Shown here: in pieces, positions 36,001 to 60,000 of the stretch | Layout of the letters: every line of letters begins with the position of its first letter | Numbering within the stretch: the first letter of the stretch is position 1 | Assembly: GCA_951406725.2 (NCBI GenBank) | Contig: OX597840.1 | Span: 11,904,001-11,968,000 of the forward strand | Direction of reading: 5' to 3' | DNA length: 64,000 nt | Origin: Octopus vulgaris | Lineage: Eukaryota | Program-made: the position numbers

Positions 36001-39000
36001 TCTGAGTACCTCATTTCTTCTAATATATATATATATATATATATATATATATATATATATATATATATATATATATATATATACATACGAGCAAAAGGCC
36101 CCCCCCATCCAATGGACAGTGCTGAGTTGTCAAACATTTCAACCAAATTTTCTCAAAACAACTTTTCCGACCGTCCCGTAGGCCTCCCCTTAGAGAAACA
36201 CTGATTTAACCTAAATTTGAGACACCAGCAAAAGAAGAAATAAAGATAGACTTTTTTCTATTCCAAGAAAAACGATTTTACAAATGCACTTTCCCACAGC
36301 TTTATCGATCGCATTCTCACCTGGAACCGATTTTTGTAATTTTTTTCAAGACTTATACACGCCCTGATACCGTCGGTATCTACATATCAAATTTGAGCGC
36401 AATCAGATGGAGGATGCCCGAGATCCTAGAAGACACACACACAGACAGACAGAACAGATTTTATATAATATATATATATATATATATATGTATCTATGTA
36501 TGTATGTATACATACATGTATATATATATTTATATTAGATAATAAACCATATGGTGTACACCTGGTAGCTTACCAGTAAAATACGCTCAATTTCTTAGTG
36601 TTCGTTGAGTATTTGATTAATGAGAGAGATAGAAGCTGGAAGATACGAGAATGTTTACTGATTGCTACAAAACGTATTTTTAATACTTTTTCCATTGTAT
36701 TGTGTATGTTTCTTTTTGCATTTAGTATTTGTTATTGATCTTGTATCATAAAGAAGCCGTTTCCCTTAAGTTGCTGTTTTTCTATACACATACCAAAAAG
36801 AAAACTTGTGGAAACTTATTTTAATGGGATATGTATTGTAATCTCCTGAAGAGACACATCTACATTGACAGATGCTCCTAAACCAGTTGCCAAGTATGCC
36901 ACCTGAGAAAGATTGATGCTAGATTTGTCGAAACAATTGTAGTGATGAATCTTTCATCTTCCATCTCTCTCATTAATTCCCACCTGAGAAAGATCGATGC
37001 TAGATTTGTCGAAACAATTGTAGTGATGAATCTTTCATCTTCCATCTCTCTCATTAATTCCCACATGAGAAAGATCGAGGCTAGATTTGTTGAAACAATT
37101 GTTGTGATGAATCTTTCATCTTCCATCTCTTTCACTAATTCCCACCTGCGAAAGATCGATGCTAGATTTGTCGAAACAATTGTAGTGATGAATGTTTCAT
37201 CTTCCATCTCTCTCATTAATTCCCACCTGAGAAAGATCGATGCTAGATTTGTCGAAACAATTGTAGTGATGAATCTTTCATCTTCCATCTCTCTCATTAA
37301 TTCCCACCTGAGAAAGATCGATGCTAGATTTGTCGAAACAATTGTAGTGATGAATGTTTCATCTTCCATCTCTCTCATTAATTCCCACCTGAGAAAGATC
37401 GATGCTAGATTTGTCGAAACAATTGTAGTGATGAATCTTTCATCTTCCATCTATCTCATTAATTTCCACCTGAGAAAGATCAATGCTAGATTTGTTGAAA
37501 CAATTGTAGTGATGAATGTTTCGTCTTCCATCTCTCTCATTAATCAAATATGTATGTATGTGTGTATGTATTTGCGTATAAGGAAAAAAATAGGAAATTT
37601 TTCACGTACCTTGAGATCTCGGAGTTCCGAGAAGGTATCAACGATGATACCAAAGATTATGTTAAGGCCAATTGTCGTGATGAAGATGAAAAATGATACG
37701 TGGAAAAGAACCACCAACCCGAATTTAGCGAATGTTGCCTCGTCTTTATGAGCTTTGATCGACTAGGAATGATGGGAAGGGTTTGGGTGGAGAGAGAAGA
37801 AGGGGGTGGGGACGGGGAAGAAAGAAAAGAGAAAAGAGAAAAGAAGAAAGAAGATAGCATTATTCTGGATAAATTGCATTAAACGATATTTACATACGTT
37901 ATGTATATGCATATATATATATATATATATATATATATATATATATATATATATATATATATATATATATATATAGATAGATATATACACATATATATAT
38001 GTACATATATATATATATGCATATACATAATGTATGTATATATATTTATATATATGTATATATATGTATATGTGTGTGTGTGTATAAATATATATATATA
38101 TGTATATATATATATATATATATGGGTGTGTGCATAAATATATGTATATGTGTATACGTATATGTATATGTTTATACATATACATATATGTGTGTATGTG
38201 TGTTTGTGTTTGTGGAGGGTGCATGTCTGCACAGGTGTGTATGTGAATATGTGAGTGCATATGTGTGCATATGTATATGTGTGTTTGTGTGCATTTGTAT
38301 GTGTGTATATGCATGTGTGTGTATGTGTGTGTGTTTGTCTGTGTGTATGTGTGTGTGTGCATGTATATGTGTATTTGTGTGTATGTGTGTATGTGTATAT
38401 GTGTGTGGATGTGCTGTGTATGTATATGTGTGTTTGCGTTTACATATATGGAAATATGTGTGTATGTGTGTTTGTATATATGCAGTTGTGTGCATGTGTG
38501 TATATGTATATGTGTATGTATGTGTATGTGTGTGTGTGTGTGTATATGCAGTTGTGTGCATGTGTGTATATGTATATGTGCATATGTGTATATGTGTATA
38601 TGTGTGTGTGTGTGTGTGTGTGTGTGGGTGTATGGAAGGATGGTTGTCACTCACTCACCTCAAATAGGTCCCCGATAAGACCATAGCGAACTACTGTGAC
38701 TGTACACTGCCACAGGGAAGCACAATAAAGATATTCATTTGGGTCGAACATATTTCTCATCATAGCAAAACCAATAATGCCGTATAGATAGAACACTACC
38801 ATGCCAAGGATGCCAACCCAAACCAGTGATTTGCCTGCAACGAAAAACGGAACCCGGTGCAAAAGATCATCAACGGAAACGCCCCTCTGGGCGCTGCGTA
38901 TGTGCATTTAAATATGTTTATAATAATAATAATATATATATATATATATACGGAACCCGGTGCAAAGATCATCAAGGGAAACACTCCTCTTTGTGTGCTG

Positions 39001-57000: not shown

Positions 57001-60000
57001 GATTACTAATTATTTGTTTGTTGATTTCTTTGAACAAGAGCTACAGCTTTCGTTTAGAGCCATCGACGCAGAGCATCTTTGACTGAAAAAGACTCAAAAC
57101 GAGATCGAAACTCCGCGGCGTCTCAGAGTGATCGGTAGAGCGGAAATGGCGCGAGACCGAGGTGTCATTGCCGAGTCGGATGTCTCGAAGGTGTTCCGCG
57201 AATCGATCAGTCAAGCGGCGTCCCGTTTGCCCTATGTATGGAGAAGGGCAGAGAGAGAGGAGATAGCAGGAGTCTCAAATTGACGGTAGAGCGGAAATGG
57301 CGCGAGACCGAGGTGTCATTGCCGAGTCGGATGTCTCGGAGGTGTTCCGCGAATCGATCAGTCAAGCGGCGTCCCGTTTGCCCTATGTATGGAGAAGGGC
57401 AGAGAGATAGAGATAGAGAGAGAGAGCAGGAGATGCAGTAGATGACATGCATAAATACACACACACACACACACGGACTCAATGAATCGGATGTGCTATG
57501 AACGCACATCGTCTGAAGAGAGATGTTTTCAGAGGATGAAATATAACCGTGGTTAATATATTCACGTTCGAATCTGCCGAAATGTATTAAGAGTGAATAT
57601 ATACGTTATTCTCTACGGCAAAGTATTGATGCGCAGGAGTGGCTGTGTGGTAAGTAGCTTGTTTACCAACCACATGGTTCCGGTTTCAGTCCCACTGTGT
57701 GGCACCTTGGGCAAGTGTCTTCTACTATAGCCTCGGGCCGACCAAAGCCTTGTGAGTGGATTTGGTAGACGGAAACTGTATATGTATATATATATATATA
57801 TGTATATATATATATATATGTGCGTGTGTGTTTGTGTGTCTGTGTTTGTCCCCCTAGCATTGCTTGACAACCGATGCTGGTGTGTTTATGTCCCCGCGGT
57901 TCGGCAAAAGAGACCGATAGAATAAGTACTGGGCTTACAAAAGAATAAGTCCCGGGGTCGATGTGTTCGATTAAAAGGCGGTCCTCCAGCATGGCCGCAG
58001 TCAAATGACTGAAACAAGTAAAAGAGGTAAAAGAGTAACTATACTAGAAAAGAAGCTATTCTCTAACCCAAAATCTAATTAGAGTAAACATCAGGAATAA
58101 AAACGGAGATGACATGATCTGGCGGGAACAAAGTAACACTACGCCATCCCCCATCTGAAATAAAACCACCAAAATGTCTGTAACAATCAGAGATAAGAAC
58201 CAGAGAAATGATAAAAAGAATTATAAATAAAACGGTTATCGGTAGAATATGTTCTCACCTTTTCAGTGGGACAGTCGGCAAAGTCCCCAGCTCTGAGTAT
58301 AAAGTTGATATAGTCAATTATCTTGTTGTCGTAAATTACTACTCGATTATCCTGATTACTCTGCAAGAAATTTAAAAAGAAAAAAGAAAAAAAAAAGAAA
58401 AAATCAAGAAGTGTCTGAGATTTTTTTTTCCCCTTTCGTTCTTTCGAGATTATCTTTCGAGTTTTTCGTGCCAAGTTAAATTTCTCCTAAAATTCTGTTT
58501 TTGTTCTTCGTTGCCAAAATTAAAGCGAGGAAAAGTTTTAAAGTTGGAATAATATATCTCTGAACGAGATGTAAACAGTAAATTCCTCAGAAAGAGTAGG
58601 GGGCACTTCAAATCCTTTGGGCAGTGGTTTTCAACCAGAGTTCCGCGGAACCTTAGGGTTCCGTCAGTACAGTCCAGGGGTTTCGCAAGAAGTTACAAAA
58701 CTGCTAAAATCGGCAGTAATTTTTAATTCTCCTGTGCAGATATGTGTGCATAAGACTATTAAATTATTGCACAGGGGTTCCTCGAGCCAGTGGTATGTTT
58801 CCTTGGGGTTCCGCTCCAGCAAAAAGTTTGAAAAGCACTGATATATATATATATATATATTAGTGGTTTTCAACCAGGGTTCCGCCAGAACAGTCTAGGG
58901 GTTCTGCAAGAAGTTACAAAACTGCTAAAATCGGCAGTAATTTTTAATTCTCCTGTGCAGATATGTGTGCATAAGACTATTAAATTATTGCACAGGGGTT
59001 CCTCGAGCCAGTGGAATGTTTCCTTGGGGTTCCGCTCCAGCAAAATGTTTGAAAAGCACTGCCTTAGGGTATCACTGAAAATACCACCTGCTTATGAGTG
59101 TAGTGTGTAGGTACTTATGATCATGTTGTGTGGACAGTCATAAGGTAGTTGTGACTGTTATCTGAGGTGGGGCCCTGCATCCGGTAGTGGGGCCCTGGTT
59201 TAGGAGTCCTAAGGTTTTGAAGAATGTCGAATCACCTCTTAGCCGTTATGGTTCTCAGGTCTACGCTCATGAAAAGGTTGACTAGGGTATGTGGGCAGAG
59301 AAAAACCCACAAAACCCAGAGTCATGATCATCGTTTGTTAGTATAATTGTTATTGAACTATCTGTGTGTGTGTGTACGTGTAAAATATACATATATAAGT
59401 GTGTGTGTATGAGCGAGTGCGAGCGTGTGTTTGTATGGATGTATGAATGTGTGTAGGTATATGTGCATTTGTGGGGAATGTGTGAATGTGTGAGTGTGTG
59501 TTGTGTGTGTTTGTGTGTGTGTGTGTGTTTGTGTGTGTGTCTACTGAAAGACACGGGGCAATTCCCCCTAACAACACACTAGTTTGGACATTAACAGAAT
59601 TATATATACAGAATTTCATGCACTAAATTGGCAATTAATTTGATGATTTGGAAATAATCAATATTTTATATTTAATAATAATAATAATCTTTATAGTTTT
59701 AGTTCGGGTAGACGCTACCTACCTTACCTGCCTACCCAGACAAAAAAGCGTCCCTACTGTATACATACCGCTGTAAATTCATTGATTGAGTCAAATAATT
59801 GGATCACTAAATCTATGCTTCTACCATTTATATTTGAATAGACGACGTCGAGGAAGCGAGTCACCTCAGCAATAATGTCAAATGATTTCACGTTGTCAGG
59901 TTGTTCCCGCAGATAATTCTACAAGAAAGAATACAGGTCAGTACCATACAAAATAATAAGCATAGAATAGAAAACAGGCAAAAACAGTATTGAGTATATA

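What the first reader, a model, noticed from the sequence alone, without database searches (positions are those of the whole stretch)
37610..59918. Mosaic of IP3R-like and RyR-like features suggests a distinct channel subfamily
IP3R-like: LNIIFG gate, HNMW, FP..RALSL and a C-terminal coiled coil. RyR-like: NYLR.Q, SLVEEN (RyR SLLEGN), FFAFHLL, ELRD, a very short S5-pore luminal loop (MRNMFDPNEYLYC), and no GSTTGGLGLLG insert as found in canonical animal IP3Rs. The R..(Y/F)D motif at the start of S6 is replaced by LVVLFH. Comparisons are from remembered reference sequences, not a computed alignment.
Basis: partly seen in the sequence, partly recalled or inferred. Interest (0 to 1): 0.7.

Follow-up and report, generated by a model that had tools for sequence, protein, structure and literature searches.

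The report
Octopus IP3R-B type calcium channel gene
The window holds the last 17 exons of an octopus gene for a non-canonical relative of the IP3 receptor, belonging to the "IP3R-B" branch that vertebrates lack; that branch was already named in 2015 but has hardly been studied.

Summary
Three of them (HNMW, FP..RALSL, coiled coil) lie outside the stated span.

The window carries 17 GT-AG exons (30314-59918) encoding the C-terminal 951 residues of a channel. 949 of 951 residues match an Octopus sinensis database protein labelled "IP3R type 3-like, partial".

Phylogeny puts the gene in a well-supported animal clade with molluscs, annelids, nemerteans, a brachiopod, flatworms, hemichordates, an acoel and Trichoplax. 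Canonical IP3Rs form a separate clade. Forcing the gene into the canonical clade is rejected (p-AU 1.85e-7). Other molluscs carry both kinds.

The nearest relative, Lottia LOTGIDRAFT_163525, is in the dataset of a published tree that recognises IP3RA, IP3RB and RyR. So the "distinct subfamily" reading is right, but the subfamily is the known IP3R-B.

Family signatures:
- GLIGD in place of GGG(V/I)GD in the pore filter
- a very short luminal loop
- no GSTTGGLGLLG insert
- in full-length orthologues, a changed IP3 pocket (K249A, G268D, R269Q, Y567S)
- retained Ca2+-sensor, Zn-finger and S6-gate residues

Likely function: a Ca2+-regulated tetrameric ER channel, possibly insensitive to IP3. This is inferred, not shown.

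Not checked: RyR in my trees, and octopus canonical ITPR and RyR genes.

The parts
59769..59918 (-). Exon 1 in the window (residues 47-96 of database protein P0001). It holds part of the RIH_assoc domain, the NYLREQ motif, the site where canonical IP3Rs carry the 11-residue GSTTGGLGLLG insert (absent here), and the second Ca2+-sensor Glu (NEF).
   Evidence: Pfam RIH_assoc at E 1.1e-10. AG acceptor and GT donor, 50 of 50 residues match P0001. Motif table. 84% identity to the Lottia orthologue.
58259..58360 (-). Exon 2 (residues 97-130), helical repeat region after RIH_assoc.
   Evidence: 74% to Lottia. Helices in the model.
56656..56739 (-). Exon 3 (residues 131-158), holds SLVEEN.
   Evidence: SL(I/V)EEN is shared across the B clade, while canonical rows read IMESR.
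55514..55693 (-). Exon 4 (residues 159-218), helical region plus a low-confidence loop.
   Evidence: 65% to Lottia.
54718..54823 (-). Exon 5 (residues 219-254).
53852..53967 (-). Exon 6 (residues 254-292), includes a beta hairpin (271-288 in the model).
49047..49216 (-). Exon 7 (residues 293-349), a highly conserved helix before the membrane domain.
   Evidence: 82% to Lottia, 44% to Capsaspora..
48156..48278 (-). Exon 8 (residues 349-390), first transmembrane helix and a luminal NST site.
   Evidence: Hydropathy peak at 355-373 and NST..
46722..46883 (-). Exon 9 (residues 390-444), second transmembrane helix.
   Evidence: Hydropathy peak at 405-427..
43123..43231 (-). Exon 10 (residues 444-480), charged cytosolic loop and the start of the third transmembrane helix. 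One residue differs from P0001 (T447A).
40514..40637 (-). Exon 11 (residues 481-522), S3 end, S4 with GYFFAFHLL, and the S4-S5 linker [11 protein letters not shown].
38659..38834 (-). Exon 12 (residues 522-580), S5, an 11-residue luminal loop, the pore helix, and the filter reading GLIGD.
   Evidence: Model helices 523-550 and 562-575.
37610..37762 (-). Exon 13 (residues 581-631), S6 with LVVLFH at its start, the LNIIFGIIVDTF gate and ELRD.
   Evidence: Pfam Ion_trans at E 1.4e-4, below the cut-off. PDB IP3R2 27.2 bits against RyR 22.2 bits..
35047..35124 (-). Exon 14 (residues 632-657), the Cys pair of the C2H2 zinc finger (CFIC).
   Evidence: C642 and C645 are invariant in 51 rows.
33840..33959 (-). 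Exon 15 (residues 658-697), the His pair of the zinc finger and EHNMW.
   Evidence: PDB IP3R3 25.8 bits against RyR 17.9 bits.. H662 and H667 are invariant.
32389..32526 (-). Exon 16 (residues 698-743), FFPLDRALSL and the start of the long C-terminal helix.
   Evidence: Model helix 718-766.
30314..31078 (-). Exon 17 (residues 744-997 plus the stop codon), the end of the C-terminal helix followed by a tail of about 230 residues rich in Ser, Arg, Asp and Pro, predicted disordered. One residue differs from P0001 (M907T).
   Evidence: (composition, SPLRYD and SPVCYD; pLDDT below 50 from residue 783; 47% to Lottia over 232 residues).

Best explanation
The window holds the 3' third (17 exons, 951 codons, minus strand, 30314-59918) of an Octopus gene for an IP3R-B type channel. 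This is the third, non-canonical branch of the IP3R/RyR family of intracellular calcium-release channels. Shown here: the exon structure, the family placement, and the signature residues. Inferred from homology: the protein is about 2,900 residues long, has an IP3R-like domain order, and forms a tetrameric six-helix channel in the endoplasmic reticulum. The S6 gate, the zinc finger and the C-terminal helix work as in IP3Rs and RyRs. Cytosolic Ca2+ acts through the retained sensor pair (Asp in place of the first Glu, second Glu kept). Further inference, less sure: it responds poorly or not at all to IP3, because full-length orthologues replace four pocket positions that 10 of 10 or 7 of 10 canonical rows keep as Lys, Gly, Arg and Tyr. 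Its ion path also differs from both IP3R and RyR: a GLIGD filter, a luminal loop of about 11 residues, and His instead of Asp at the mouth of S6.
For: Exon map: 17 exons, all GT-AG, no in-frame stop, 949 of 951 residues identical to P0001 (O. sinensis, 'IP3R type 3-like, partial'). Superfamily: Pfam RIH_assoc on exon 1. A profile of four mollusc proteins hits solved IP3R2 at 2e-55 and RyR at about 5e-35. The AlphaFold model of P0001 has pLDDT mostly 80-96 over residues 22-767, and Foldseek finds IP3R3 (E 7e-23, TMq 0.43) and RyR3 (E 1e-20, TMq 0.45). Placement: IQ-TREE, 47 rows by 431 columns. The canonical clade has support 100/100 and the animal B clade 100/99. The octopus gene sits with Lottia 163525, Pomacea 18496, Potamilus and Mizuhopecten at 100/99. 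FastTree on 92 rows gives the same picture, as does the RIH-associated region. The AU test rejects a join with canonical IP3Rs at p 1.85e-7. Exon by exon against the window DNA, the Lottia orthologue hits 17 of 17 exons at 47-85% identity. Canonical Liolophura IP3R hits 9 of 17 at 25-42%. Link to the named family: the sequence Lgig_163525 in the leech paper's supplement is identical, over the stretch shown, to P0185. The paper's text assigns its sequences to IP3RA, IP3RB and RyR, and says IP3RB is missing from vertebrates, Drosophila and C. elegans. Architecture of orthologues: Ins145_P3_rec, MIR, RIH, RIH_assoc and Ion_trans, with no SPRY or RyR repeat, in 4 of 4 mollusc orthologues scanned. 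IP3 pocket, 22 B-side rows against 10 canonical rows: K249 to Ala in 22 of 22, G268 to Asp in 21 of 22, R269 to Gln, Pro or Thr in 22 of 22, Y567 to Ser in 22 of 22. R265, K508, R511, R568 and K569 are kept in 22 of 22. Ca2+ sensor: the two Glu and one Thr named for rat IP3R1 (E1978, E2042, T2657, passages of PMC9522344) align to Asp in MCDGQN and Glu in NEF. The Glu is invariant in 51 rows. An eLife paper summarises Alzayady et al. as finding that IP3R-B 'could not bind IP3'.
Against: The N-terminal two thirds of the gene, including the IP3 pocket and the first Ca2+-sensor residue, are not in the window. Those statements rest on orthologues from other molluscs, not on octopus sequence. Five of the basic pocket residues are kept, including the three I recall as essential (R265, K508, R511), so some ligand binding cannot be excluded. 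No RyR sequence could be brought into my trees, so nothing here tests whether B is sister to RyR. At the level of whole-domain scores the B profile is further from RyR (about 124 bits) than a canonical fragment is (about 185 bits). The label given to Lgig_163525 in the published figure could not be seen, because figures are not held. The primary paper (Alzayady 2015) is not held, so its content is cited second hand. PMC9522344 notes that Capsaspora IP3Rs seem not to be regulated by Ca2+ as mammalian ones are, despite conserved sensor residues. Residue conservation therefore does not prove Ca2+ gating. No expression or functional data for the octopus gene were seen.
Confidence: 0.8

Rival explanations
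1. It is an IP3R-B type channel that is still gated by IP3 (or by another inositol phosphate) through a remodelled pocket, so it works as a second, pharmacologically different IP3 receptor.
For: R265, K508, R511, R568 and K569 are kept in 22 of 22 B-side rows, and R504 is conservatively Lys. Orthologues keep Ins145_P3_rec and MIR domains above the Pfam cut-offs. The changed positions are themselves conserved across phyla, which suggests a constrained site rather than decay.
Against: K249, R269 and Y567 are replaced in 22 of 22 rows, and an Asp sits at the G268 position in 21 of 22. The second-hand report says IP3R-B could not bind IP3. Pfam scores for the ligand-binding domain are 69-83 bits against 286 bits in a canonical mollusc IP3R.
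Confidence: 0.3
2. It is the octopus canonical ITPR orthologue that has simply evolved fast.
For: The database names call it 'IP3R type 3-like'. Solved IP3Rs score better than RyRs for 3 of the 4 exons that hit either family.
Against: The AU test rejects it at p 1.85e-7. Orthologues at 47-85% identity per exon exist in other molluscs, and some of those species also carry a true canonical IP3R (Physella, Liolophura). The 11-residue insert and the GGG(V/I)GD filter are present in 8 of 8 and 18 of 18 canonical rows and absent here.
Confidence: 0.02
3. It is a RyR relative, or a chimera (an assembly or recombination mosaic) of an IP3R and a RyR gene.
For: The S4 exon scores marginally better against RyR3 (17.5 bits against 16.7). 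SLVEEN resembles SMLEGN seen in invertebrate RyR text. The fold search scores RyR about as well as IP3R.
Against: The same mix of motifs is present in orthologues from at least eight animal phyla, so it is a family signature and not a local mosaic. Both halves of the window's coding part give the same tree position. Orthologues are 2,850-3,000 residues long with no SPRY or RyR repeat. The profile score is 191 bits to IP3R against about 124 to RyR.
Confidence: 0.02
4. It is a decaying or non-conducting copy: a pseudogene, or a subunit that only modulates other channels.
For: The canonical filter is lost across the B clade, and its sequence varies between B subclades. No functional data exist for animals.
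Against: There are 17 intact exons with no stop or frameshift. Identity to Lottia is 80% over 426 columns of the channel region. The S6 gate motif, zinc-finger ligands and the second sensor Glu are invariant or nearly so across 51 rows. A leech member is strongly and specifically expressed in touch neurons.
Confidence: 0.05

Closest known systems
IP3R-B / IP3RB subfamily (Alzayady et al. 2015, seen only as cited; leech ip3rb1 and ip3rb2 in PMC7992859)
   Same: Same clade. The nearest relative of the window's gene (Lottia 163525) is one of the sequences in the leech paper's tree file. The taxon pattern is the same: limpet, polychaete and acorn worm are present, and no vertebrate, insect or nematode appears among the named hits (best 120 of 155 listed). 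The changed IP3 pocket agrees with the reported lack of IP3 binding.
   Different: No defining feature differs. The searches made found no description of a cephalopod member. The octopus protein belongs to one of at least three mollusc paralogue groups and carries a disordered C-terminal tail of about 230 residues.
Canonical IP3 receptors (ITPR1-3, invertebrate Itpr; 'IP3R-A')
   Same: Orthologues have the same Pfam domain order. Shared features include the S6 gate pattern LN..FG..(V/I)DTF, the CFIC and H....H zinc finger, EHNMW, the FP..RA.SL pattern, the second Ca2+-sensor Glu, and a long C-terminal helix.
   Different: Only 23-25% identity over the shared part. The filter is GLIGD, not GGG(V/I)GD. 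The luminal loop is about 11 residues, where 16 of 18 canonical rows carry 27-147 more. The 11-residue and 3-residue inserts in RIH_assoc are absent. The first sensor Glu is Asp. Four IP3-pocket positions are replaced in orthologues. The clades are separate.
Ryanodine receptors
   Same: Shared channel-core fold (TMq 0.45). The S4 motif with HLL and NGK, and a Leu-Glu-x-Asn motif at the SLVEEN site. A relatively short luminal loop compared with IP3R (recalled, not tested here).
   Different: Orthologues are about 2,900 residues, not about 5,000, and have no SPRY or RyR-repeat domains. The profile score to RyR is lower than to IP3R. The RyR filter reads GGGIGD (recalled). RyR was not included in my trees.
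Dictyostelium IplA ('IP3 receptor-like protein A'), the name carried by the O. bimaculoides record
   Same: Only the automatic name. Both are divergent IP3R-like channels.
   Different: No IplA sequence was identified here, so the relationship was not tested.

Membership tests
IP3R/RyR superfamily of intracellular release channels | RIH-associated domain upstream of the membrane domain | tested here: met
   Pfam RIH_assoc on exon 1 alone, E 1.1e-10, 41.7 bits against a cut-off of 28.5.
IP3R/RyR superfamily of intracellular release channels | Six-helix channel domain with pore helix and a long S6, followed by a C2H2 zinc finger and a C-terminal domain | tested here: met
   Profile against solved structures: IP3R2 2e-55, RyR about 5e-35. 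Model helices and Foldseek hits to IP3R and RyR. Cys and His ligands invariant. Pfam Ion_trans on the S6 exon alone is below the cut-off (21.6 against 25 bits) but above it in 4 of 4 orthologues.
IP3R-B (IP3RB) | Falls in the clade that is separate from canonical IP3R and holds the limpet, polychaete and acorn-worm sequences of the published trees | tested here: met
   (support 100/99 for the animal B clade). AU test. Lgig_163525 of the published dataset equals P0185 over the stretch shown. The label in the published figure itself was not visible.
IP3R-B (IP3RB) | No IP3 binding, with non-conserved IP3-coordinating residues | tested here: inconclusive
   The pocket lies outside the window. In 22 B-side orthologue rows, 4 positions are replaced and 5 basic ones are kept. 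Binding itself cannot be tested with these tools.
IP3R-B (IP3RB) | Sister group of RyR (IP3R-B/RyR split, as cited from Alzayady 2015) | not tested
Canonical IP3R (IP3R-A, ITPR) | GGG(V/I)GD selectivity filter after the pore helix | tested here: not met
   18 of 18 canonical rows have it. The window reads RYGLIGDLFE.
Canonical IP3R (IP3R-A, ITPR) | GSTTGGLGLLGLY insert in RIH_assoc and a long S5-pore luminal loop | tested here: not met
   The insert is in 8 of 8 canonical rows and 0 of 15 B-side rows. Loop data.
Canonical IP3R (IP3R-A, ITPR) | Membership of the canonical clade | tested here: not met
   Log-likelihood is 138.4 lower when held together, p-AU 1.85e-7.
Ryanodine receptor | SPRY and RyR-repeat domains, length about 5,000 residues | tested here: not met
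   This part is not in the window. Orthologues (Lottia, Patella, Babylonia, Mizuhopecten) are 2,859-3,007 residues with no such Pfam domains. The precomputed Pfam lists of the 120 listed hits show no SPRY or RyR-repeat family as I read the accessions.

The most novel reading that the evidence does not exclude
Mollusc 'B1' channels such as this one may be a functionally third kind of ER release channel: insensitive to IP3, and gated by Ca2+ or by a partner that binds the long tail. They would have a rebuilt ion path, with a GLIGD filter two residues shorter in the HMMER alignment and His replacing the Asp at the luminal end of S6. These two changes travel together in 108 of 121 B-type sequences. 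The lophotrochozoan radiation into at least three paralogue groups (B1, B2, B3) would then mark a diversification of such channels, perhaps in sensory neurons as in the leech, that my searches did not find described.
Probability: 0.3. Interest if true: 0.65.

Novelty: new member of a known kind. Interest (0 to 1): 0.35.

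Why it matters
IP3R-B is the least known branch of a very well studied channel family. The searches made found no structure, no recording and no ligand reported for any animal member.

The octopus copy is intact and strongly conserved, and it comes from an animal used for neurobiology. The signature differences found here give concrete hypotheses for expression, binding and cryo-EM work. These are the filter, the luminal loop, the S6 mouth, the IP3 pocket in orthologues, the retained Ca2+ sensor, and the long tail.

For genome annotation, the finding shows that automatic names such as "IP3R type 3-like" hide a separate paralogue family. It also shows that several database models of this family skip exons.

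Tried and rejected
- **Solved structures, exon by exon.** Scores were weak. Exon 1 found neither IP3R nor RyR. Exon 12 found only IP3R2 at E 1.2. These searches alone could not place the gene.
- **Pfam on 111 minus-strand frames of 29.5-61 kb.** Only two relevant hits were found. The other weak hits (Ctr, SecG, DUF2663, Cad, GPI2, Pex24p) fall in repeats and are below cut-off.
- **Primary paper.** Alzayady 2015 is not held under its PMC id or its DOI.
- **The listing of cluster members.** This was meant to name the unnamed representatives, but it is switched off. Names came instead.
- **RyR sequences.** None could be stored. The third homologue search listed only canonical IP3Rs, so RyR is absent from all my trees.
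- **Octopus canonical ITPR or RyR.** None is among the 120 listed hits, and the literature search gave only a muscle review that draws RyR in a cartoon. This remains unchecked.
- **Fold search.** It does not separate IP3R from RyR (TMq 0.43 against 0.45).
- **First FastTree.** It used only unnamed representatives and could not be interpreted until named sequences were added.
- **Pfam on 88 frames of 1-30 kb.** Nothing was above cut-off.
- **Complex prediction.** Not used, because a tetramer pass would only reflect likeness to solved channels.
- **Closed collections.** Metagenome contigs and viral contigs were not searched.

Full report
**What is in the window.** The window has no N. It is AT-rich and full of microsatellites. 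Reading stop-to-stop frames showed channel-like exons on the minus strand.

Searching exon by exon, Pfam found RIH_assoc in the frame at 59757-59918 (E 1.1e-10, above the cut-off). It found a weak Ion_trans match in the S6 frame at 37547-37762 (E 1.4e-4, below the cut-off). These were among 111 minus-strand frames scanned.

The last large frame (30317-31081) retrieved five database proteins. The first, P0001, is 'inositol 1,4,5-trisphosphate receptor type 3-like, partial [Octopus sinensis]' at 99% identity. Two are O. bimaculoides models at 98%. The others are Pomacea and Potamilus proteins.

tblastn of P0001 against the window, followed by a splice-site search, gave 17 exons from 59918 down to 30314. 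All have AG and GT borders, none has an in-frame stop, and 949 of 951 residues are identical to P0001. The first 46 residues of P0001 are not in the window. Upstream of exon 1 the window ends in 2.96 kb of (ATAAT)n.

Searches with window sequence were made exon by exon. Whole-protein analyses used database proteins returned by the tools as stand-ins.

All 11 listed strings exist. Eight lie within 37610-59918. HNMW, FP..RALSL and the C-terminal helix lie in exons 15-17, outside that span.

The comparisons were then computed rather than recalled:
- In an alignment of 8 canonical IP3Rs and 15 B-side proteins, the 11-residue GSTTGGLGLLG-type insert and a 3-residue PCH insert are in 8 of 8 canonical rows and 0 of 15 others.
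- SL(I/V)EEN, GYFF(A/C)FHLL and FFP(L/M/V)(D/N)RAL.L are signatures of the whole B side.
- NYLR.Q is also found in 4 of 8 canonical rows, all invertebrate, so it does not point to RyR.
- The filter reads RYGLIGDLFE here, against GLR(N/S)GGG(I/V)GD in 18 of 18 canonical rows. In 16 of those 18 rows the luminal stretch before the pore helix carries 27-147 more residues.

Against solved structures, exon by exon:

| Exon | IP3R (bits) | RyR (bits) |
|---|---|---|
| 13 | 27.2 | 22.2 |
| 12 | 12.8 | no hit |
| 11 | 16.7 | 17.5 (RyR3) |
| 15 | 25.8 | 17.9 |
| 1 | no hit | no hit |

So the SLVEEN resemblance is real.

**What family it is.** A profile of four mollusc proteins (alignment A1, 64-65% identity between octopus, gastropod and bivalve) was run against 1.84 billion representatives. 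It found 6,057 proteins at E up to 0.001 and 530 at E up to 1e-30. None of the best 150 has the canonical insert. The same profile scores solved IP3R2 at 191 bits and RyRs at about 124 bits.

A second search from a Pomacea paralogue listed the best 120 of 155 hits. The named ones come from:
- molluscs
- annelids (Owenia, Capitella, Dimorphilus, Paralvinella)
- nemerteans
- Lingula
- Macrostomum
- hemichordates
- the acoel Convolutriloba
- Trichoplax
- Capsaspora

All are auto-named as IP3 receptors, and most are 2,500-3,000 residues long.

A third search from a canonical-type fragment (P0134; 485 bits to solved IP3R2) listed canonical IP3Rs. Some come from species that also have the other kind: Physella, Liolophura, Lineus, Tubulanus and Ptychodera.

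Trees agree with one another:
- FastTree on 92 rows.
- IQ-TREE with LG+C20+F+G4 on 47 rows by 431 columns. The canonical clade has support 100/100 and the animal B clade 100/99, with a branch of length 1.1 (100/100) between the two sides.
- In that tree the octopus gene groups with Lottia 163525, Pomacea 18496, Potamilus and Mizuhopecten (100/99). A second mollusc paralogue group is sister to this one (97/96), and a third is deeper.
- Holding the octopus gene with the canonical clade is rejected (log-likelihood 138.4 lower, p-AU 1.85e-7).
- The region before the membrane domain (residues 22-289) gives the same placement. So the gene is not a mosaic of two families.

Exon-by-exon tblastn against the window shows the Lottia orthologue on 17 of 17 exons (47-85% identity). 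A canonical mollusc IP3R appears on 9 of 17 (25-42%).

**The name of the family.** I read passages of PMC7992859, a study of leech neurons. They state that earlier work (Alzayady et al. [quoted passage not shown] They also state that IP3RB was lost in vertebrates, is absent from Drosophila and C. elegans, and is understudied. Leech ip3rb2 is enriched in touch neurons.

The sequence file of that paper contains Lgig_163525. Its visible stretch is identical to P0185, the closest relative of the window's gene. I could not see the figure, so the label of that sequence is inferred from its features.

Alzayady et al. is not held. [quoted passage not shown] My own recollection of its abstract agrees, but that is recall.

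**How it probably works.** The AlphaFold model of P0001 was built on a 51-row alignment. It is confident over residues 22-767 and disordered from about 783 onward. It shows:
- S5 at 523-550
- a pore helix at 562-575
- one long S6 helix at 591-640
- a C-terminal helix at 718-766

Foldseek finds IP3R3 (E 7e-23) and RyR3 (E 1e-20) with near-equal TM-scores.

Several features are conserved with canonical IP3Rs:
- the gate pattern LNIIFGIIVDTF
- both Cys and both His of the zinc finger, invariant in 51 rows
- EHNMW
- the second Ca2+-sensor Glu, invariant

The first sensor Glu is Asp in all 14 animal B rows shown. In human IP3R1 the Glu-to-Asp change lowers open probability but keeps Ca2+ regulation (passages of PMC9522344).

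The IP3 pocket cannot be read in the window. In full-length orthologues the pattern is as follows:

| Position | 22 B-side rows | 10 canonical rows |
|---|---|---|
| K249 | Ala, 22 of 22 | Lys, 10 of 10 |
| G268 | Asp, 21 of 22 | Gly, 7 of 10 |
| R269 | Gln, Pro or Thr, 22 of 22 | Arg, 10 of 10 |
| Y567 | Ser, 22 of 22 | Tyr, 10 of 10 |
| R265, K508, R511, R568, K569 | kept, 22 of 22 | kept, 10 of 10 |

Orthologues have Ins145_P3_rec, MIR, RIH, RIH_assoc and Ion_trans, and no SPRY.

I therefore commit to this reading: a tetrameric ER channel, regulated by cytosolic Ca2+, with weak or no response to IP3 and an altered ion path. The identity and anatomy are shown. Tetramer formation, location, gating and selectivity are inferred.

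**What stays open.**
- RyR was not in any of my trees.
- The octopus genome's canonical ITPR and RyR genes were not looked for successfully.
- The N-terminal two thirds of this gene were not seen.
- Supplements of bioRxiv versions are closed.
- The supplement of PMC7992859 was seen only in passages.
- In the searches made, I found no paper on a cephalopod IP3R-B. Only one paper uses the term IP3RB for animal genes.

**Verdict.** The interpretation, a distinct subfamily, is correct but already known. This is a new, auto-annotated member of IP3R-B. It is of moderate interest because the family is barely studied and the signature differences are sharp.

Noticed in passing
window 38659-38834 and 37610-37762; stored B-type proteins: Within the B family two pore features travel together. 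Of 121 B-type sequences, 53 have a G(L/M/V/I)(I/V/T)GD filter with His at the start of S6, 55 have another filter with Asp there, and 13 are exceptions or gaps. The first state marks essentially one lophotrochozoan clade, so it may be a single event rather than repeated co-evolution.
   Followed up: partly
stored proteins: The B family is expanded in lophotrochozoans. Molluscs show three paralogue groups; Babylonia and Mya, for example, have a member in all three. Owenia has four B-type proteins and Lineus three, each in addition to a canonical IP3R where one was listed.
   Followed up: partly
window 30314-31078 (exon 17): The tail of about 230 residues after the C-terminal helix is predicted disordered and is rich in Ser, Arg, Asp and Pro. 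Even so, it keeps patches shared with Pomacea and Lottia (47% identity over 232 residues), including SPLRYD and SPVCYD. Pfam finds nothing there.
   Followed up: partly
window 55721-56625: Intron 3 (55694-56655) consists almost entirely of a 60-bp unit repeated 15 times at 94% match.
   Followed up: no
window 36899-37544: An 81-bp unit repeated 8 times at 95% match lies in intron 13, ending 66 bp from exon 13. It gives long open frames on both strands that are not genes.
   Followed up: no
window 61044-64000: 2.96 kb of (ATAAT)n runs to the end of the window and hides whatever lies upstream of exon 1, including the exon that encodes the first 46 residues of P0001.
   Followed up: no
window 13851-14550 and copies near 8.7, 15.3, 23.0, 34.8, 44.3-44.7, 46.4, 50.4, 52.8 and 57.9 kb: A dispersed repeat of about 400 bp has ten further matching stretches in both orientations at 71-92% identity. 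Several lie inside introns of the channel gene, and it looks like a SINE-type element.
   Followed up: partly
stored proteins P0002, P0003 (O. bimaculoides) and P0006 (Pomacea 19629): Database gene models of this family skip exons. P0006 lacks exactly the S6 exon at the same borders as in the octopus. The two O. bimaculoides models lack the exons that encode the S3-S4 region, and one also lacks the zinc-finger Cys exon (compared).
   Followed up: partly
window 1-30000: No Pfam domain above cut-off was found in 88 frames on both strands downstream of the gene. The region holds large tandem arrays (176-bp, 262-bp and 30-bp units, and long AT and ATT runs). A frame at 25907-26260 on the minus strand looks to me like a transposon remnant, but this is from recall and was not tested.
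   Followed up: partly
window 43123-43231 and 30314-31078: The only two residue differences from the O. sinensis protein are T447A and M907T. The O. bimaculoides model reads Thr at the second site.
   Followed up: no
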